From IMG/VR virus record IMGVR_UViG_2541047861_000012, positions 1 to 19,841 of that record: a stretch of DNA of 19,841 bases; one strand, 5' to 3'. Source of the DNA: a virus (Duplodnaviria > Heunggongvirae > Uroviricota > Caudoviricetes). The translations under genes and the position numbers were made by a program. Under the pieces are notes generated by a model. That model had not been told where the DNA came from. It was given only the letters and a program-made list of their open reading frames with translations, and made no database searches. This document shows, in pieces, positions 6,651-17,114 of this stretch. Position 1 is the first letter of the stretch. The number at the start of each line of letters is the position of its first letter.

Positions 6651-6687
6651 TAGCAAACAAATTATTTGCTACTGTATAAATATACAG
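6651..6687. promoter_or_regulatory. operator-like tandem inverted repeats upstream of gene 6710-6967
   Basis: TAGCAAA-N7-TTTGCTA (6651-6671) immediately followed by CTGTATA-AA-TATACAG (6672-6687, contains TATAAAT), ending about 10 nt before the GGAG of gene 6710. Confidence 0.3.
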
Positions 6688-6709
6688 TTATTGCATGGAG
6701 AATATTAAG

Positions 6710-6967
6710 ATGCAGCAGTATCACTATCCACTGGAAGACGGATTTACCGAAAGGATTCACACGCCGGGAGGCGTCAGGTCACTGGTGGAGGGATCGCACT
6801 TGATGAAATTACTCCGGGATCTCGATAAGGATGGATTTAATGTCGATGGCCCACTTGCCGAACTGACTGCACTGATTAACTACGTCACCAGCTCACAGAT
6901 GTCTATGCAGGATCTGCAAACACATCTCGACTATTGTGCCGAACAATTACGAAAACAAACCAGATAA
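6710..6967 (+). CDS. small stand-alone homologue of the antirepressor C-terminal module
   Basis: GGAG at 6697-6700, 9 nt before ATG 6710 (the in-frame ATG at 6695 has no SD); 85 aa; SHLMKLLRDLDKDGFNVDGPLAELTALINYV...MQDLQTHLDY aligns with the shared C-terminus of 7283-7978 and 8987-9925 (SLLMNLLNQLQEDGHDVSGAAAELTTMFCYIV...LRDIQTHAEY). Confidence 0.55.
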   Translation: MQQYHYPLEDGFTERIHTPGGVRSLVEGSHLMKLLRDLDKDGFNVDGPLAELTALINYVTSSQMSMQDLQTHLDYCAEQLRKQTR

Positions 6968-6997
6968 GATTTGAAATTACCAATAGGAGTGCTTATA

Positions 6998-7014
6998 TTT
7001 ACCTTTGCGGTAAA
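6998..7014. promoter_or_regulatory. operator-like palindrome TTTACC-N5-GGTAAA (copy 1)
   Basis: TTTACC (6998-7003), TTTGC, GGTAAA (7009-7014), nested inside a longer inverted repeat GGAGTGC (6986-6992) / GCACTCC (7023-7029). Identical half-sites recur at 8151-8167. Confidence 0.3.
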
Positions 7015-7105
7015 TTTACATCGCACTCCTCTTGTGCCATAGTAATCGGGCACTGGCAAAATCCAGTGCCGGGATTGGCGTCCCGGATTACTAAAAGGCG
7101 CATTC

Positions 7106-7125
7106 ACCGCGCAAGCGGTTTTTTT
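7106..7125 (+). terminator. weak rho-independent terminator in the leader of the Bro-N antirepressor gene
   Basis: Short stem ACCGC (7106-7110) / GCGGT (7115-7119), loop GCAA, then a T-run to 7125; preceded by hairpins at 7049-7070 and 7069-7086 that share bases. Confidence 0.3.
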
Positions 7126-7282
7126 ATGCGTATAGCACGGCCACATTCGTATTATGGTGGGCTGTGTGGGGGCACCGAAAGGTGCGCCGGGTCCTTTTAG
7201 CCGGTTACGCCAACCCTGCACAGTTCACCACCAACCGATTGGCGTCGGTAGTGGTGATTAACCAGACTAAAAGGTAACCACT

Positions 7283-7978
7283 ATGACAGCTACAAAAAGC
7301 ACGTCCATTTTTTCTTTCGAATCCCAAGCCGATATACGGGTAATCGTCATTAATGGTGAGCCATGGTTTATCGCTTCAGATGTTTGTCGGGCTATAGGCA
7401 TAGCAAACCATCGAGATGCTGTTCGAAAACTTGATGATGATGAGAAGGGCGTCGCTTCAACCGACACCCCTGGCGGTGAGCAAGAATCGATCATCATCTC
7501 CGAGTCAGGCCTCTACACACTGATCCTCCGCTGCCGCGACGCAGTGACACCAGGCACTATCCCCTACCGCTTTCGTAAATGGGTTACAGGTGAGGTTCTT
7601 CCTCAGATCCGCCGCACCGGAAGTTACATTAAAAACTCGCTCCCGCAGGAAGAACGCATAAAGATGGTTGCCGACCAGGTAGCCAACGCCACAGCATCAG
7701 CAGTGATGCAGGCAATGAAGATAGAGAACAAAACCTACAGTGCCCCGCTGAAGCCCGGCTACCGCAGTTTGATTCACTCGCCGTCTGGTGTTCTCGGCCT
7801 GACGGAGAACTCACTGCTGATGAATTTGCTGAACCAGTTACAGGAAGACGGGCATGACGTATCGGGCGCGGCGGCGGAACTGACCACCATGTTCTGCTAC
7901 ATCGTCGGTGTGAGTAAATGCCTGCGTGATATCCAGACTCACGCGGAGTACATCAACGACAAAGCAGGATTCTTCTGA
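7283..7978 (+). CDS. antirepressor-like protein (Bro-N N-terminal domain plus shared antirepressor C-terminal module)
   Basis: AAGG about 8 nt upstream of ATG 7283; Bro-N signature FESQADIRVIVINGEPWFIASDVCRAIG...ESGLYTLILRCRDAVTPGTIPYRFRKWVTGEVLPQIRRTG; last 77 residues identical to those of 8987-9925. Confidence 0.8.
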   Translation: MTATKSTSIFSFESQADIRVIVINGEPWFIASDVCRAIGIANHRDAVRKLDDDEKGVASTDTPGGEQESIIISESGLYTLILRCRDAVTPGTIPYRFRKWVTGEVLPQIRRTGSYIKNSLPQEERIKMVADQVANATASAVMQAMKIENKTYSAPLKPGYRSLIHSPSGVLGLTENSLLMNLLNQLQEDGHDVSGAAAELTTMFCYIVGVSKCLRDIQTHAEYINDKAGFF

Positions 7979-8963: not shown

Positions 8964-9220
8964 CACGTCCCTGTGCCGCCGTTCTGTCAGAAGAACCCTG
9001 CCTTGTCGTTGATGTATTCCGCGTGCGTCTGGATATCACGCAGGCATTTGCTCACACCAACGATGTAGCAGAACATGGTGGTCAGCTCCGCCGCCGCGCC
9101 CGATACATCGTGCCCGTCTTCCTGTAACTGGTTCAGCAGATTCATCAGCAGTGAGTTCTCCGTCAGGCCGAGAACACCCGACGGCGAATGAATCAGACTG
9201 CGGTAGCCTGGCTTCAATGG
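8964..9220. repeat. inverted repeat copy B (3' end of gene 8987-9925 plus about 23 bp)
   Basis: Partner of 7745-8000; see copy A. Confidence 0.85.
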
Positions 9221-9925
9221 ATAACCATAACATTTTGTCTGTGTTTTAATTGCCTCACGAAGCGCATCTAACATCTTGACTGCCACTTCATCATTCTCTG
9301 ATGCAGATCCAGCAGGGAGATACTCCCCTTCAAGCGGAACCCGAGCAACAAGAGACAACGCTTCGGCAAATTGATCTTCACCAATTTCTTTGTACGAACA
9401 GCCAAAATGAGATTTCAGTGACGACCACATGGTGATCATCGCCTTAGCCTGTTTTTCTTTTGGCAGAGACTGACCGCGACTCATGACGAGTTGTTTAATG
9501 GCTTCCTGCTGTTCAGTTGTTATTTTACCCGGCAACGCCTTTTTAGCTTTGCGTGGGTTAACCACATGGCCTTTAGTCCAGTACTCGTAGAGCACATCGT
9601 CACACTCTTCCTGATACTGGATTACCTTGTCGCGGATTTCAGGGCGGACTTTGTTAGGGCTGATGCTGTTCAACCAAGCTGCCAATTTTCGTAAAGCCAT
9701 ACAAATCATGGCTTGCACCCCACCGGCAGAAGGTATGGTGATTTCCACCATACCCTTCGAGAAGCGTTGAGAAATCTTCTTATGTTGAGATTTCCAGTCT
9801 AGCCCCATTCCCTCAACGATAGGTTTCATTGGGGTATACGGTTCGCCGTTGTGATTGACAACATAAAGCTCTGCGCCGTGGAATGGCACGTTGATAGTAG
9901 ATACTGCTGTTGCTATACTCGTCAT
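8987..9925 (-). CDS. ant: antirepressor (Ant-like; AntA/P22-Ant-type N-terminal domain plus shared C-terminal module)
   Basis: 312 aa; follows the arc-like gene on the same strand after a 72-bp spacer; N-terminal region INVPFHGAELYVVNHNGEPYTPMKPIVEGMGLDWKSQHKKI resembles phage antirepressor N-terminal domains; C-terminal 77 aa identical to 7283-7978. The symbol is given by position and domain analogy to P22 ant. Confidence 0.8.
   Translation of the reverse strand: MTSIATAVSTINVPFHGAELYVVNHNGEPYTPMKPIVEGMGLDWKSQHKKISQRFSKGMVEITIPSAGGVQAMICMALRKLAAWLNSISPNKVRPEIRDKVIQYQEECDDVLYEYWTKGHVVNPRKAKKALPGKITTEQQEAIKQLVMSRGQSLPKEKQAKAMITMWSSLKSHFGCSYKEIGEDQFAEALSLVARVPLEGEYLPAGSASENDEVAVKMLDALREAIKTQTKCYGYPLKPGYRSLIHSPSGVLGLTENSLLMNLLNQLQEDGHDVSGAAAELTTMFCYIVGVSKCLRDIQTHAEYINDKAGFF
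9891..9919 (+). promoter_or_regulatory. candidate sigma70 promoter for an antisense (sar-like) RNA
   Basis: -35 TTGATA (9891-9896), 17-bp spacer, -10 TATACT (9914-9919); predicted start near 9926, i.e. opposite the ant start codon (9923-9925). Confidence 0.4.
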
Positions 9926-9999
9926 GTCGTTAATTCCTATACGTAGTTTTACGATACTGAAGCCCTGACGGTCTGGCCACCGTGGGGCTTCGCTGTTTT
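9926..9999 (+). ncRNA. predicted sar-like antisense RNA covering the arc-ant intercistronic region and ant ribosome-binding site
   Basis: Transcript predicted from promoter 9891-9919; ends at stem GAAGCCC (9959-9965) / GGGCTTC (9985-9991) with inner stem ACGG/CCGT, followed by GCUGUUUUA (9992-10000). About 70 nt, same size and topology as P22 sar RNA. Confidence 0.35.
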
Positions 10000-10165
10000 A
10001 TGCCACGCTATTCTTCTCACCAGTGAGTCCATACACTTTCCTCAGCTGATAGATAATCTCTGTATTGAACTTTCGGCATTCTTTTTCGCCATTTCTTTCA
10101 ATAGCTAACTTCACATCGTCCGGAAAACGAACTCGTCGTTGACACATCTCTTTTGCTTTTTGCAT
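9998..10165 (-). CDS. arc: Arc-like ribbon-helix-helix repressor
   Basis: AAGGAG SD 7 nt upstream of ATG 10165 (the longer ORF from 10186 lacks an SD); 55 aa MQKAKEMCQRRVRFPDDVKLAIERNGEKECRKFNTEIIYQLRKVY... matches the Arc/MetJ RHH pattern (compare P22 Arc RWPREV...NGRSVNSEIYQRV); first gene of an arc-ant operon. Confidence 0.8.
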   Translation of the reverse strand: MQKAKEMCQRRVRFPDDVKLAIERNGEKECRKFNTEIIYQLRKVYGLTGEKNSVA

Positions 10166-10179
10166 TTCATATCTCCTTA

Positions 10180-10248
10180 GCCCCACCGTGGGGCAAAATA
10201 ATTGTCACACCGTGCGTCATTGATGTCAAGCACACGGTGAGGCATACT
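10180..10248. promoter_or_regulatory. immI-type control region: overlapping divergent promoters with repeated CACCGTG/CACGGTG operator heptads
   Basis: Near-palindrome GCCCCACCGTGGGGC (10180-10194); CACCGTG at 10208-10214; CACGGTG at 10233-10239; a fourth copy GCCACCGTGGGGC at 9976-9988. Minus-strand promoter: -35 TTGACA (complement of 10224-10229), -10 GACAAT (complement of 10201-10206). Plus-strand promoter: -35 TTGATG (10220-10225), -10 CATACT (10243-10248). The heptad core matches the CCACGGTGG core I recall for the P22 Mnt operator. Confidence 0.55.
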
Positions 10249-10285
10249 TCAATCATTGCAAGTAACTCAATATTTGGTGAAGAAC

Positions 10286-10717
10286 ATGAGCAGAGAAGAT
10301 CCACAACTAAGGATCAGACTTCCCGTCGAAGTAAAAGAAAAAATAGAAATTTCTGCAAAAGCCAATAAGCGATCAATGAACGCTGAAATAGTACAACGTC
10401 TTGACACCAGCTTTCTGAAAGATATTCATGAAGATGACGTAATTTCTGCTTATGAAGCAAAAATCATTGCAAACAATGCACGACATGAAATATCAAATAT
10501 TATTTTCAAAAGAACCTTTAATGAAATTAATAAGAAAATAACACTTGGACATACAAGTTTTTATATAAACCTTAATGACCTTGAACTGGAATCACTTGCA
10601 GATAATGATTACCAGATCATCTTTGAAAAAACATTTAATAGGCTCAATGAACTAGGTTACATCATCTGTGAAAACTCATGGGATGCAGATGGTTTTGGAA
10701 TTGAAATACCTGAATAG
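10286..10717 (+). CDS. mnt: Mnt-like ribbon-helix-helix repressor with a novel C-terminal extension (chimeric)
   Basis: ATG 10286 preceded by GGTGA (the ORF track begins at TTG 10256); N-terminus MSREDPQLRIRLPVEVKEKIEISAKANKRSMNAEIVQRL closely parallels P22 Mnt (ARDDPHFNFRMPMEVREKLKFRAEANGRSMNSELLQIV); 143 aa versus 83 aa for Mnt; the extra acidic C-terminal part lies in the AT-rich block. Confidence 0.75.
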   Translation: MSREDPQLRIRLPVEVKEKIEISAKANKRSMNAEIVQRLDTSFLKDIHEDDVISAYEAKIIANNARHEISNIIFKRTFNEINKKITLGHTSFYINLNDLELESLADNDYQIIFEKTFNRLNELGYIICENSWDADGFGIEIPE

Positions 10718-10807
10718 GAAGAACAAAAGGCGTGTACATATTACACGTCTTTAATACAATTGAAAAACGCCACATTACTGATGTATGTTACAACAAGGAG
10801 CGATATT

Positions 10808-11371
10808 TTGAAAACCATATCTATATTAAAGGTTGCATTAGGCGTCGCTATTATTTTGACTCTCTCAATATTGTTTTATTTTTACCACAAACAAACTGCT
10901 ATTGCTCTTGATAGTCACGCGGCAAACTCATTTTTCTCAGAGTACATAGTGCCGCTATCAGGAAGCGGTATAACAAATAAATATACTGACTATGACATCA
11001 AATATGGAATTGATGATGGGGAGACTATTGTATTACATGTAATCATTAAAAACCTAATGACAGTAAATAAAAATACAGACTTCAACGATAAAAATACAAT
11101 ACATCACAACAACAGCAAAACATTAATTTCTTATAGTAGCAACATCTATACGGATAAATACCTAAAATACATATCAGAAGATACAATAAAAGAAACCCGC
11201 GAAAAGTTAAAAAACATATATTGTGCATCCGGCAGTTTTCACAAATTATCGCCGCAAGAGCGTTTATTCTACGAAGCAAGAAAACAACGTAAGTCAATAA
11301 TATTACATTATTATGCTGATTCAGGGGAGACACTCATATTTAATATTGGGGTTTCCCCTGAATCATGCTAA
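10808..11371 (+). CDS. single-pass membrane protein of unknown function in the sieA position (candidate superinfection-exclusion/defence moron)
   Basis: AAGGAG (10795-10800) 7 nt before in-frame TTG 10808; alternative in-frame starts at ATG 10781 and TTG 10760 (ORF track). N-terminal TM helix ISILKVALGVAIILTLSILFYFY then an Asn/Lys/Tyr-rich soluble domain; very low G+C; stop 11 bp from the stop of the convergent 1004-aa gene. Confidence 0.65.
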   Translation: MKTISILKVALGVAIILTLSILFYFYHKQTAIALDSHAANSFFSEYIVPLSGSGITNKYTDYDIKYGIDDGETIVLHVIIKNLMTVNKNTDFNDKNTIHHNNSKTLISYSSNIYTDKYLKYISEDTIKETREKLKNIYCASGSFHKLSPQERLFYEARKQRKSIILHYYADSGETLIFNIGVSPESC

Positions 11372-14397: not shown

Positions 14398-17114
14398 TAT
14401 TTAGATCCCCACGAAAAGTAATCTTTAAATTTGTCCATACGTTCGTTATGCAGGCGCTGATACTGCTCATCCAGAGCGCGATGCTTGTCTTTGAAGTTTC
14501 GTATAGCCTGTCCACGCATAATTTCTTCCTGCTCGTACTGCTCCCGTTCCTGCTGCATTTTCTTATAAGGTTCCCAATCTTCTAGTGATGGTTCCCAACG
14601 CATAGGACGCCCATGTTTGTTATAAAACGGCTGGACCCGATCGATGCCATTTTCATCCTTAGTTCTTACCATAATGGCGTAATCACCATTACGAGGTGTT
14701 AACACGTCAGGGGTTATGAATAATTCTCCATTAATACGACTCTCAGGGGTTTTTGTCTCAACTACAGGAGCATTACCTGACGTGATCCCAAGCAACGTCG
14801 GACTGGTTGTTATAATCTCTTTGCGCTCACCGTACATCAGCCGTTCTTTTTCAGCTTTCCACTGCGCCGCCTGCCAGCCTGACGGCCCATATTGATAAAG
14901 CGCCTCCGGTGCATATTTCATAAACTGCGCTTCTCCGTTAACCTCGCTGATACTCCAGGTGCGGGCTATCTGCTGGTTGGTCATTTGCTTCGCTACGTCA
15001 GCGTTACCACCAGCAACGCGGTAGTTAATGTCATACAGCGTCTGATAGTCATTACGGAATCTAGCTGCTTCCGGCGTCTGGTCATCCGCAGACGGATCCC
15101 AACGGAACCACTGCGCCATATTGCTGACAGCAGAATTCATCGCCTTGCTGCGATTATTTTTGTACTCTTTTGAACTCTGCGTTGATGCCAATTGAGCTTT
15201 AAGAGCATCGGTCTGGTTGTACGTCAGGTTCTGCGCCTGCTCGATAGCCGCATCAGCAGACATGCCAGAATCTGTTAGTTGCTTAACAGTCAGATAAAAA
15301 CCCTGCATATCCTTCGGCATATTTCCAATAGATGCATTGTCTGTTTCATATAACCGACTAAACAAATTCGCTGCATTTTTAACCACTTCCTGATTGCTGG
15401 ATCTGGATACTGCTGAAAGCTGCGTGATGACCTGCGAAGGCATGATGCCAGTCTGAGCCACAAGCCGAACAACCCCATCATGAGTGGAGGCATCATTAAT
15501 ACGAAAGTTCTGCGCCATTTCTGTGTAATCAGCAGCTTTCTGCATTGATTTGTTGCTTGGGTCTAATTTTTCACCTATTGTCAGCGCCTCATTGAATCTG
15601 CGTGAATCACGTTGCGCCTGAATTGCTTCATTTGATCGCTGAAGCAATGCAGACAATTTTCCGTAAGCATCGAGTTTTAACGCATAGTGAGGATCGTTAA
15701 CCTCAGGCTTCACTTTCTGCATTTCTTCTTGCTGCTGAGAAGGAGGTAAATACTGAATTGCCTGGAATATTCTCGCGTTATCAATCGCTATATCCAGTTG
15801 ATTGATTATTTTATCTGCATTTTTTCCATACCCCCTGATGATAGTCTCCTGAGCCGGTATATAATCTGGAACCTCACCGTTATATAGCTGGGCCATGGTG
15901 TTATTAATAGCTGGCTCAAGCTGTTCTAATATTAACTTCCTTTGCTTTTCTATCTGACTATTAGCAAGGTTATCTATTTGATAAATAGTCAGCGGATCCA
16001 TTCCAGTTTTATTTTTTCTATATCGGGAAAGCCACCCTTGTGTTTCTGATGGAAGATTTCGGATAAATTCTTCTTCTGATATTTCACCTTTACGTGGATC
16101 ACCGACTTTGGCGATCAGTTTATCCACGTTACCCATCCCCCAGTTATATGCTGCTCCGGTCAATATTTCGGAGCCGTACTTACCATACAGTTGATTTACA
16201 TAGTCACTGGCGAGCATTTCATGCTGTTGTTCGTCCGTAGGGTTGTATTTAACGCCACGCTTGGCCGCCAGTTCTTTCCCTGTGCCCGGCATTAACTGGT
16301 ATTTCCCCTGGGCTCTCTCTCCAGAAGATGTTATCGGTCCTTCAAGAAGACTACCATCAGGATTAAAATGTCGATCACCTGATTCAACAAGGCGTATGGC
16401 ACGCATGTCCATGCCTCCAGAATCATTTTTCTGAAACAGACCATTTAGCCATCCTTCTGGATTGGCAGCGGCATAATTCTTCGCCCGCATTTCTGTGGCA
16501 CGGCGATCATCACTTTCTATTTCTTCCAGAATGCGTTCTTGTGACCATCCCCTGGCAGCTCCATATCTAGCAATGGCTACCATTCTGGAATTTCTGGCTA
16601 AAGTGGCAGTTTGCGGGTCATTCCAGGCATCCGCTTCATTTTGTATCCATAATTTTCTCGTTGCCTGATATTGCTCATCTTCATAGGCATTTGTCTGCCC
16701 TATCTCATGTCTGAGAACTCCAGTACTGAACTGAATTTTCTGTGTTCTGGCTTGTTGCAAAAACATATTTCTTGCTGCTTCATCAGTCAATGAAGCAGCT
16801 ATTTCTTCCACATCCTGATCAAATCCAGATATGTACTCTTGCCCCTTACCAATCGCATTTTTGCCTTGTTGTGCATAAAAACCGGTTTGAGGGTTATAAA
16901 GACGTTCATTGCTGCGCTGATTAAGCTGAAGGATGGCATCCTGAGACAATGCAACATTCGCTTTCTGCCTGGCTTCACCATATGCCACCGCATACTGATC
17001 TGCGACATTCGCCAGCACCTGACCTGCTTGAGGAACATCGAAGATCTGAAAACCACCGGTTTGCACACCACGACTTTGCACCTGGCGTCCGGATGTAGTA
17101 GGAACAACAGGCAT
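14397..17114 (-). CDS. internal virion protein with soluble lytic transglycosylase (SLT) domain
   Basis: 905 aa; SLT signature around residues 236-330 (RLVESGDRHF...GKYQLMPGTGKE...AAYNWGMGNV); 1-nt start/stop overlaps with both neighbours. Confidence 0.8.
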   Translation of the reverse strand: MPVVPTTSGRQVQSRGVQTGGFQIFDVPQAGQVLANVADQYAVAYGEARQKANVALSQDAILQLNQRSNERLYNPQTGFYAQQGKNAIGKGQEYISGFDQDVEEIAASLTDEAARNMFLQQARTQKIQFSTGVLRHEIGQTNAYEDEQYQATRKLWIQNEADAWNDPQTATLARNSRMVAIARYGAARGWSQERILEEIESDDRRATEMRAKNYAAANPEGWLNGLFQKNDSGGMDMRAIRLVESGDRHFNPDGSLLEGPITSSGERAQGKYQLMPGTGKELAAKRGVKYNPTDEQQHEMLASDYVNQLYGKYGSEILTGAAYNWGMGNVDKLIAKVGDPRKGEISEEEFIRNLPSETQGWLSRYRKNKTGMDPLTIYQIDNLANSQIEKQRKLILEQLEPAINNTMAQLYNGEVPDYIPAQETIIRGYGKNADKIINQLDIAIDNARIFQAIQYLPPSQQQEEMQKVKPEVNDPHYALKLDAYGKLSALLQRSNEAIQAQRDSRRFNEALTIGEKLDPSNKSMQKAADYTEMAQNFRINDASTHDGVVRLVAQTGIMPSQVITQLSAVSRSSNQEVVKNAANLFSRLYETDNASIGNMPKDMQGFYLTVKQLTDSGMSADAAIEQAQNLTYNQTDALKAQLASTQSSKEYKNNRSKAMNSAVSNMAQWFRWDPSADDQTPEAARFRNDYQTLYDINYRVAGGNADVAKQMTNQQIARTWSISEVNGEAQFMKYAPEALYQYGPSGWQAAQWKAEKERLMYGERKEIITTSPTLLGITSGNAPVVETKTPESRINGELFITPDVLTPRNGDYAIMVRTKDENGIDRVQPFYNKHGRPMRWEPSLEDWEPYKKMQQEREQYEQEEIMRGQAIRNFKDKHRALDEQYQRLHNERMDKFKDYFSWGSK

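What the first reader, a model, noticed from the sequence alone, without database searches (positions are those of the whole stretch)
9976..10248. Four copies of the CACCGTG/CACGGTG heptad in a back-to-back promoter region
A 7-mer and its reverse complement occur four times within about 270 bp: GCCACCGTGGGGC at 9976-9988, GCCCCACCGTGGGGC at 10180-10194, CACCGTG at 10208-10214 and CACGGTG at 10233-10239. The minus-strand promoter for arc-ant has a perfect TTGACA -35 whose sequence overlaps the -35 of the plus-strand promoter for the mnt-like gene. The heptad resembles the core of the P22 Mnt operator as I recall it, so the chimeric Mnt-like protein probably still recognises a P22-type operator despite its replaced C-terminus.
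Basis: partly seen in the sequence, partly recalled or inferred. Interest (0 to 1): 0.5.

Follow-up and report, generated by a model that had tools for sequence, protein, structure and literature searches.

The report
Three-operator array for Mnt-like repressor
Three of the four repeated 7-mers are the conserved cores of three repressor-binding sites that sit on a pair of back-to-back promoters controlling a prophage antirepressor, a variant of the classic phage P22 immI switch; the fourth copy is just part of an RNA terminator hairpin.

Summary
In detail: CACCGTG/CACGGTG occurs at 9978, 10184, 10208 and 10233, against 1.8 copies expected in the whole window. The window is an E. coli prophage about 99% identical to phage TL-2011b. 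It carries a P22-type immI module: ant, sar antisense RNA, an arc-like gene, divergent promoters and an mnt-like gene.

Copies 2-4 are the cores of three 17-bp palindrome-like sites:
- O1, 10179-10195, lies at the predicted start of the arc/ant promoter. It has the position, orientation and CCACCGTGG core of the annotated P22 Mnt operator.
- O2, 10203-10219, overlaps that promoter's -10.
- O3, 10228-10244, lies in the spacer and -10 of the mnt-like promoter.

The same three CACnGTG sites, 24-26 bp apart, recur upstream of every relative with the invariant N-terminus MSREDPQLRIRLP. This holds in about 60 distinct loci from many genera, including loci where the arc-like gene is replaced. The motif is 159-fold denser there than in flanking DNA.

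Copy 1 lies in the stem of the sar terminator. It is absent in other genera and lost by a G-to-T change in 7 of 17 near-identical prophages, so it is probably not an operator.

Binding is inferred, not shown. This is a new variant of a known kind, of modest interest.

The parts
8987..9925 (-). ant, antirepressor gene (312 aa)
   Evidence: Pfam P22_AR_N at 5.9e-45; PHROG anti-repressor Ant; annotated Ant in TL-2011b.
9891..9919 (+). Psar-like promoter inside the 5' end of ant (TTGATA, 17 bp, TATACT, with TG)
   Evidence: Promoter scan, 10 of 12 matches. It ends 7 nt before the start of the Rfam sar match. Same arrangement as annotated P22 Psar.
9927..9994 (+). sar antisense RNA, complementary to the ant ribosome-binding region and the arc-ant spacer
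   Evidence: Rfam RF00262, 44.8 bits against a gathering score of 43, full length 1-68. Folds at -23.2 kcal/mol, z -2.3.
9959..9991 (.). sar terminator / arc-ant intercistronic hairpin, GAAGCCC..ACGGT..loop..ACCGT..GGGGCTTC
   Evidence: Folds on both strands. An equivalent hairpin with a different inner stem follows arc in 16 other loci.
9978..9984 (+). Heptad copy 1: inner 3' stem of the sar terminator, probably not an operator
   Evidence: Paired in the hairpin. No heptad at this place in other genera. 9984 G>T removes it in 7 of 17 near-identical prophages. The Rfam consensus has GUUGGGGCUUC here.
9998..10165 (-). arc-like gene (55 aa), probable ribbon-helix-helix protein
   Evidence: BLASTP to P22 Arc, 4e-5; phrog_228 Arc-like repressor, 3.4e-5; no Pfam hit at 0.01; annotated Arc family in RefSeq.
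10179..10195 (.). O1: aGCCCCACCGTGGGGCa, a 15-bp perfect palindrome (heptad copy 2) at about +1 to +16 of the arc/ant promoter, abutting the arc-like Shine-Dalgarno
   Evidence: I5. Same position and core as the annotated P22 mnt operator. Conserved as TGCCCCACnGTGAGGCA in 16 genera. The only variation among close relatives is the central base, 10187 C>G.
10201..10229 (-). Pant-like promoter: -35 TTGACA 10229-10224, 17-bp spacer, -10 GACAAT 10206-10201
   Evidence: Promoter scan, 10 of 12 matches with TG; hexamers conserved in relatives.
10203..10219 (.). O2: TGTCACACCGTGCGTCA (heptad copy 3), overlapping the -10 and spacer of the arc/ant promoter
   Evidence: Nearly invariant in 16 genera and in 44 further viral loci. 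Occupies the place where P22 has the Arc operator.
10220..10248 (+). Pmnt-like promoter: -35 TTGATG 10220-10225, 17-bp spacer, -10 CATACT 10243-10248
   Evidence: My reading of the sequence. The -10 is CATAAT in 14 of 15 other genera and the block is conserved. Below the scan threshold in the window.
10228..10244 (.). O3: aagcaCACGGTGaggca (heptad copy 4), in the spacer and -10 of the mnt-like promoter and just upstream of the arc/ant -35
   Evidence: In all 15 other genera this site reads AACCCCACnGTGGGGCA. The window's left half is degenerate.
10286..10717 (+). mnt-like repressor gene (143 aa): ribbon-helix-helix domain, long helix, extra alpha/beta domain
   Evidence: Pfam Arc PF03869 at 1.1e-14, residues 2-46. 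phrog_1388 full length; phrog_795 (P22 Mnt family) over residues 1-84. BLASTP to P22 and L Mnt over their whole length. AF2 model pLDDT 79.6.

Best explanation
The region is the control switch of a P22-type immI (antirepressor) module in a TL-2011b-like E. coli prophage. Heptad copies 2-4 are the cores of three roughly 17-bp two-fold symmetric operators, O1, O2 and O3, with consensus TGnCnCACnGTGnGnCA and centres 24 and 25 bp apart.

The most likely binding protein is the Mnt-like ribbon-helix-helix repressor encoded to the right. Bound at O1 (transcription start) and O2 (-10 and spacer), it would shut off the leftward promoter for arc-like and ant, keeping antirepressor off in the lysogen. 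Bound at O3 (spacer and -10 of its own promoter), it would limit its own synthesis. O1 is the positional and sequence counterpart of the single P22 Mnt operator. O2 and O3 are extra sites that P22 lacks.

Heptad copy 1 is a by-product of the stem of the sar antisense-RNA terminator and is probably not an operator.

Shown here: the sequences, their positions relative to consensus promoter elements, their conservation and their co-occurrence with the Mnt-like N-terminal domain. Inferred: which protein binds, the stoichiometry and the regulatory outcome.
For: 1. Module identity: ant (P22_AR_N), sar (Rfam RF00262), arc-like and mnt-like (Pfam Arc), in the P22 order and orientation.
2. O1 compared with P22 Omnt: same CCACCGTGG core, same strand for the asymmetric central base, and a 5-bp against 6-bp gap to the -10 of the arc/ant promoter.
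3. Phylogenetic footprint: in 16 genera with 70% mean identity in the intergenic region, the CAC and GTG triplets of all three sites are invariant or nearly so. The central base is free (C, G or A), as expected for a dyad axis.
4. 44 further distinct viral loci all show the same sites; 43 have all three and one (L080) has two in the window searched. The motif is 159-fold denser upstream of the gene than in flanking DNA.
5. The sites follow the Mnt-like N-domain, not the partner gene. Three CACnGTG sites persist where the leftward small gene is an unrelated 58-aa protein (L040, L043, L044, L047, L049) or a different RHH (L039, L041, L045, L048), and in a Pf inovirus facing an excisionase.
6. 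The N-terminus MSREDPQLRIRLP is invariant over proteins that are 60-70% identical overall.
7. Phages with other Mnt types also carry a CACnGTG-centred 17-bp palindrome: P22 and epsilon34 aGGTCCACCGTGGACCt, L and SE1 AAGACCACGGTGGTCTT. The G of GTG is the most specific position of the P22 half-site (PMC2726951).
8. O2 and O3 lie between the two predicted start points, so their symmetry cannot be explained by a hairpin in a locally initiated RNA.
Against: - No binding experiment or structural model of the complex exists.
- The Arc-like protein carries the same predicted contact triad (Q, R, R) as the Mnt-like protein. In this data set it is never found without the Mnt-like N-domain, so it could share or own some of the sites. 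O2 occupies the P22 Arc-operator position.
- Much of the O2-O3 block overlaps promoter hexamers, which also constrain sequence.
- Spacings of 24-25 bp are not integral helical turns, so simple same-face cooperativity is not obvious.
- The plus-strand promoter in the window is weak by consensus (8 of 12).
- On the window alone the cluster is only p about 0.04.
Confidence: 0.75

Rival explanations
1. The heptad sites, or some of them and especially O2, are operators of the Arc-like protein. Alternatively both paralogous RHH repressors share the same three sites, with Arc-like acting early after infection and Mnt-like in the lysogen.
For: Arc-like and Mnt-like have the same residues (Q, R, R) at the three predicted DNA-facing beta-strand positions. 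O2 lies in the spacer of the arc/ant promoter, where P22 has its Arc operator. No P22-type Arc operator exists in the window. Little other conserved sequence in the 120-bp control region could serve as a separate Arc-like operator. O2 flanks are nearly invariant while O1 flanks vary.
Against: The three sites persist unchanged in architecture where the Arc-like gene is absent or replaced by unrelated proteins, so Arc-like is not required for their maintenance. Arc-like position -4 varies (R or K) while the sites do not. In P22, Arc and Mnt differ at one of these three positions yet bind unrelated operators, so a shared triad is weak evidence (established P22 knowledge, from memory). The invariance of O2 flanks can be explained by the overlapping -10 and -35 hexamers.
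Confidence: 0.25
2. The palindromes act at the RNA level: O1 as a 5' stem-loop of the arc/ant mRNA, affecting stability or translation next to the Shine-Dalgarno, and copy 1 as a terminator. They would not be protein-binding sites.
For: O1 would be transcribed as about +1 to +16 and folds into a 6-bp stem of -10.7 kcal/mol directly before the Shine-Dalgarno. Copy 1 is clearly within a hairpin that matches the sar terminator.
Against: The O1 fold is not unusual (z -1.47; 21 of 200 shuffles fold as well). O2 and O3 have the same core and lie between the two predicted start points, so they are not in either local transcript. The same core is an experimentally defined protein operator in P22. The RNA reading holds for copy 1 only.
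Confidence: 0.1
3. All four copies, including 9978-9984, are operators. The site in the sar terminator lets the repressor act a second time between arc and ant, by roadblock or looping with O1 206 bp away.
For: The 12-mer CCACCGTGGGGC is identical at 9977-9988 and 10183-10194. The right half-site GTGGGGC is perfect.
Against: The left half is poor (ctggcCAC). GGGGCTTC is inherited from the conserved terminator stem. Other genera have the hairpin but no heptad. 7 of 17 near-identical prophages carry T at 9984, which destroys the heptad and matches the Rfam sar consensus. P22 has no such site.
Confidence: 0.12

Closest known systems
Phage P22 immI region: mnt, Pmnt/Pant with Omnt and Oarc, arc, sar, ant
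   Same: Gene order and orientation. An Ant with the P22_AR_N domain. A sar antisense RNA with its promoter inside ant. Overlapping divergent promoters. A 17-bp palindromic operator with the CCACCGTGG core just downstream of the -10 of the arc/ant promoter.
   Different: Three operators with the same core instead of one Omnt plus a distinct 21-bp Oarc. The promoters are back to back with overlapping -35s, not fully superimposed. The Mnt-like contact residues are Q/R/R rather than H/N/R, and the outer half-site is GTGGGGC rather than GTGGACC. The repressor is 143 aa with an extra C-terminal domain. The host phage is an epsilon15/TL-2011b-type podovirus, not a P22-like phage.
Mnt of phages L, ST64T and SE1 (Q/N/R type)
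   Same: An RHH followed by a C-terminal helix, 40% identical to the window protein over 88 residues. A single 17-bp perfect palindrome AAGACCACGGTGGTCTT with the same CACnGTG core upstream of mnt.
   Different: One site only; no arc or ant in those phages; an 82-aa protein.
Arc/Mnt-domain proteins of Pseudomonas Pf filamentous prophages (e.g. PfAC03 ORF7)
   Same: 40% identity over 125 residues including part of the C-terminal region. Three CACnGTG sites 26-28 bp apart in front of the gene, facing a divergent gene.
   Different: The divergent gene is an excisionase, not arc-ant. The flanks are gggatCACnGTGgtccc. The paper that describes these proteins never uses the word 'operator' (PMC7549136).
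Other ribbon-helix-helix repressors with solved DNA complexes (Arc 1par, AmrZ 3qoq)
   Same: The N-terminal 45 residues match by sequence and predicted fold.
   Different: Different operators and oligomerisation modules. The C-terminal domain of the window protein has no significant structural match (best Foldseek E 0.08).

Membership tests
P22-type immI antirepressor control module | Divergent mnt-type repressor gene and arc-ant operon | tested here: met
   ORFs and homology; same layout as annotated P22.
P22-type immI antirepressor control module | Antirepressor homologous to P22 Ant | tested here: met
   Pfam P22_AR_N at 5.9e-45; phrog_524 and phrog_245.
P22-type immI antirepressor control module | sar antisense RNA across the ant start, with a promoter inside ant | tested here: met
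   Rfam RF00262, 44.8 bits against a gathering score of 43 (a narrow pass), full length. Promoter-like site ends 7 nt upstream.
P22-type immI antirepressor control module | 17-bp symmetric Mnt operator overlapping the start of the arc/ant promoter | tested here: met
   By sequence and position only: O1 at 10179-10195 against P22 at 1927-1943 of L002. Binding was not tested.
P22-type immI antirepressor control module | Separate 21-bp Arc operator (TAGA-type half-sites) between -10 and -35 of the arc/ant promoter | tested here: not met
   No match to the P22 Oarc core with up to 3 mismatches. The position is occupied by O2, which has the Mnt-type core.
P22-type immI antirepressor control module | Repressor binds the operator and represses Pant | not testable with these tools
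   Needs EMSA, footprinting or reporter assays.
Mnt repressor family (RHH plus C-terminal tetramerisation helix; phrog_795) | N-terminal Arc/Mnt ribbon-helix-helix domain | tested here: met
   Pfam PF03869 at 1.1e-14; PDB 1mnt at 1.9e-7 with the family profile.
Mnt repressor family (RHH plus C-terminal tetramerisation helix; phrog_795) | C-terminal helix homologous to the Mnt coiled coil | tested here: inconclusive
   phrog_795 profile matched over residues 1-84. BLASTP alignments run to the end of Mnt. AF2 predicts a helix at 55-86. Identity in this stretch is low and the oligomeric state is unknown.
Mnt repressor family (RHH plus C-terminal tetramerisation helix; phrog_795) | P22 Mnt DNA-contact residues (His6, Asn8, Arg10) | tested here: not met
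   The window protein has Gln7, Arg9, Arg11. Only the Arg is shared.
Rfam sar RNA (RF00262) | Score at or above the gathering threshold with both hairpins | tested here: met
   44.8 against 43 bits, model positions 1-68.

The most novel reading that the evidence does not exclude
The two paralogous ribbon-helix-helix repressors of this module, Arc-like and Mnt-like, both carry Q/R/R on the DNA-reading strand. They may read one shared array of three CACnGTG operators. The early and maintenance repressors would then compete or cooperate at identical sites and differ only through their C-terminal oligomerisation modules, which vary from 86 to 152 aa in this family. That would be a different logic from P22, where Arc and Mnt have separate operators.
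Probability: 0.2. Interest if true: 0.55.

Novelty: new variant of a known kind. Interest (0 to 1): 0.38.

Why it matters
P22 Mnt and Arc are textbook models for beta-sheet DNA recognition and for quantitative models of protein-DNA specificity.

This locus shows that the CACnGTG core of the Mnt operator is shared by a much larger, uncharacterised repressor family. That family is phrog_1388, labelled 'unknown function', with hundreds of prophage copies in Enterobacterales plus relatives in Acinetobacter, Rhizobium, beta-proteobacteria and Pf inoviruses. The family uses three sites rather than one.

This yields:
- a ready-made motif for annotating antirepressor switches in prophages;
- natural series of half-site variants paired with contact-residue variants (H/N/R, Q/N/R, Q/R/R);
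- a testable question about how C-terminal modules set cooperativity over sites 24-26 bp apart.

It is an extension of known biology, not a new principle.

Tried and rejected
1. Chance. A window-only test over all heptads gives p about 0.04, and a raw count of 4 or more of any heptad occurs in 20% of simulations. Chance was rejected for copies 2-4 only because of conservation. It was retained as the likely origin of copy 1.
2. Copy 1 as a fourth operator: rejected as the main reading.
3. A P22-type Arc operator: none found.
4. LexA control of this promoter: no LexA box near 9900-10300. The only perfect box is at 6672-6687, in front of the other antirepressor module.
5. A known fold for the C-terminal domain. 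Foldseek against the PDB gave nothing significant; the best hit was the Stn1 winged helix at E 0.08. The PDB sequence-profile search hit only the RHH part.
6. Arc-like genes without an Mnt-like neighbour, to separate the two proteins. All 44 distinct viral loci had both, so the test was uninformative in that direction.
7. Literature. Searches for CACCGTG with ribbon-helix-helix, for Arc-family antirepressor operators, and for TL-2011b/phiV10/epsilon15 found no description of this operator array. Man and Stormo 2001 (PMC55749) is not held.

Full report
**What is there.** The four strings are at the stated coordinates. The window is an E. coli prophage. The finding's region, 9900-10750, is 99.4% identical to phage TL-2011b and 95-100% identical to 36 complete E. 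coli chromosomes.

The finding lies in a P22-type immunity-I module read on the opposite strand:
- ant, 8987-9925 (-), Pfam P22_AR_N at 5.9e-45.
- A sar antisense RNA, 9927-9994 (+), Rfam RF00262, 44.8 bits against a gathering score of 43. A promoter-like site, TTGATA-17-TATACT at 9891-9919, lies inside ant.
- An arc-like gene, 9998-10165 (-), 55 aa. BLASTP to P22 Arc gives 4e-5 and phrog_228 gives 3.4e-5.
- An mnt-like gene, 10286-10717 (+), 143 aa, Pfam Arc at 1.1e-14 over residues 2-46.

The annotated P22 record shows the same order.

**Chance.** The heptad is expected 1.83 times in the window and occurs 5 times, four of them within 264 bp. When every heptad is allowed, 11 of 300 simulated windows give an equally unusual cluster. 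A bare count of four or more of some heptad occurs in 61 of 300. The window alone therefore gives only modest significance. The case rests on comparison.

**Copies 2-4 are three operators.** Read with five flanking bases on each side, they are:
- O1, aGCCCCACCGTGGGGCa, 10179-10195
- O2, TGTCACACCGTGCGTCA, 10203-10219
- O3, aagcaCACGGTGaggca, 10228-10244

The leftward promoter is TTGACA (10229-10224), 17 bp, GACAAT (10206-10201). O1 then begins 5 bp downstream of the -10, at about +1 to +16, and abuts the arc-like Shine-Dalgarno. O2 overlaps the -10 and spacer.

The rightward promoter is my reading: TTGATG (10220-10225), 17 bp, CATACT (10243-10248). O3 fills its spacer and touches its -10.

In P22 the annotated mnt operator reads aGGTCCACCGTGGACCt. 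It lies 6 bp downstream of the annotated arc/ant promoter, with the same central base on the same strand. O1 is therefore the counterpart of P22 Omnt. The published P22 half-site is GTGGACC, and its third base, the last G of GTG, is the most specific position (PMC2726951).

**Conservation.** The 143-aa protein is not a singular chimera. It has 261 homologues, 60-70% identical over the full length, across Enterobacterales, and it matches phrog_1388 end to end. The N-terminus MSREDPQLRIRLP is invariant in 27 diverse members.

- In 16 loci from different genera, including the window, the intergenic region is 70% identical on average. The CAC and GTG triplets of all three sites and the promoter hexamers are invariant or nearly so. 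The central base varies among C, G and A, as expected for a dyad axis.
- 44 further distinct viral loci show the same sites at the same spacing; 43 have all three and one (L080) has two in the window searched.
- Over 25 genome loci, CACnGTG occurs 72 times in 3,150 bp of upstream zone against 15 times in 104,229 bp elsewhere, a 159-fold density ratio.
- Flanks are palindromic within a site but differ between sites and clades: gcccCACnGTGgggc, gtcaCACnGTGtgac, tactCACnGTGagta, aaacCACnGTGgttc. Rhizobium has tgccCACCGTGgacc, close to P22.

**Which protein.** Two or three CACnGTG sites remain, with the same promoter geometry in the Xenorhabdus and Serratia loci, in the following cases:
- where the leftward small gene is an unrelated 58-aa protein (five Xenorhabdus and Serratia loci);
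- where it is a different RHH (Acinetobacter, Giesbergeria, Pseudorhodoferax, Rhizobium);
- in a Pf inovirus, where the neighbour is an excisionase.

The sites therefore track the Mnt-like N-terminal domain. This is the main reason to assign them to that protein.

The reverse dissociation could not be obtained. Every Arc-like gene found is paired with an MSREDPQLRIRLP gene. The Arc-like protein also has Gln, Arg, Arg at the three predicted DNA-facing strand positions, the same as the Mnt-like protein (P22 Mnt has His, Asn, Arg; P22 Arc has Gln, Asn, Arg). No P22-type Arc operator is present, and O2 sits where P22 has Oarc. Arc-like binding to the same array therefore remains a live rival or complement.

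**The protein.** BLASTP alignments to P22 Mnt and phage L Mnt run over the whole of those proteins, to window residues 84-86. The P22-Mnt PHROG profile matches residues 1-84. The AF2 model (pLDDT 79.6) has the RHH, a long helix at 55-86 and a small alpha/beta domain at 91-140. That domain has no significant structural neighbour. 'Extended' describes it better than 'replaced C-terminus'. However, relatives with the same N-terminus range from 86 to 152 aa, so the C-terminal part is modular in the family.

**Copy 1.** Positions 9978-9984 form the inner 3' stem of the sar terminator, GAAGCCC-TG-ACGGT-loop-ACCGT-G-GGGCTTC. It folds on both strands at -23.2 and -22.5 kcal/mol.

All 16 other loci examined (L020, L025-L038, L042) have an equivalent hairpin after arc, with a different inner stem and no heptad. 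Among 17 near-identical prophages, 7 carry 9984 G>T. That change destroys the heptad and restores the GUUGGGGCUUC of the Rfam sar consensus. In contrast, O1 varies only at its central base, 10187 C>G. The shared 12-mer with O1 therefore owes GGGGC to the conserved terminator stem. I treat copy 1 as structural, with about 0.12 probability of operator function.

**RNA-level alternative.** O1 would form a 6-bp 5' stem-loop of -10.7 kcal/mol, but this is not unusual (z -1.47). O2 and O3 lie between the two predicted start points, so a DNA-level reading covers all three.

**Mechanism proposed.** In the lysogen the Mnt-like repressor occupies O1 and O2 and blocks the strong leftward promoter, so that arc-like and ant stay off. 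Occupation of O3 limits its own promoter. sar adds antisense control of ant translation, as in P22. The steps shown are sequence, position, conservation and co-occurrence. Binding, stoichiometry and regulatory sign are inferred.

**Novelty.** I found no description of this three-site array or of phrog_1388 function in the held literature. It is a new variant of a well-known system, useful for annotation and as natural variation for Mnt-type DNA recognition, but not surprising in principle.

Noticed in passing
window 6672-7978: A second antirepressor module lies next to the P22-type one. It comprises a perfect LexA-box-like CTGTATAAATATACAG (6672-6687), isrK RNA (7050-7125, 77.9 bits), C4 antisense RNA (7150-7235, 77.7 bits) and a Bro-N antirepressor ORF (7283-7978). 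Both antirepressors share a C-terminal region (phrog_450, phrog_15539), which may mean they target the same repressor.
   Followed up: partly
window about 10311; L001 (TL-2011b NC_019445) about 4411: The isolated phage TL-2011b has a 1-bp G insertion after about codon 8 of the mnt-like gene (ctaagggatc against ctaaggatc). It frameshifts the DNA-binding strand, and the record annotates a shorter ORF starting later. This is either a real inactivation of the repressor or a homopolymer sequencing error.
   Followed up: partly
window 9900-9972: Nucleotide similarity to the ant 5' end of phage CUS-3 and a Salmonella phage (91.8%) stops at 9972, inside the loop of the sar hairpin. This suggests a mosaic recombination joint within the terminator.
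   Followed up: no
window 10228-10235: The left half of O3 in this prophage lineage (aagcaCAC) differs at two positions from the aacccCAC found in all 15 other genera. That probably weakens the autoregulatory site.
   Followed up: no
window about 16319-16590: TCCAGAA or its complement occurs 5 times within 270 bp (8 in the window) inside the 905-aa ORF. This cluster is statistically stronger than the one in the finding. It is not a tandem repeat.
   Followed up: no
L053 (Pseudomonas phage PfAC03) 525-585: Three CACnGTG sites (gggatCACGGTGgtccc twice, aagacCACCGTGgtcca) lie inside the annotated 5' end of the Arc-like ORF7. This suggests the true start is at L053:601 and that the sites control the divergent excisionase/repressor promoters.
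   Followed up: partly
L072-L134 (IMG/VR loci): Genes with the identical N-terminus MSREDPQLRIRLP encode proteins of 86-91, 117-125 and 143-152 aa. The DNA-binding domain is combined with several alternative C-terminal modules while the operator array stays the same.
   Followed up: no
window 10760-11371: A 203-aa ORF with an N-terminal hydrophobic segment lies downstream of mnt-like, in the position where P22 has sieA. It matches phrog_8033 (unknown function) and has no Pfam hit.
   Followed up: no
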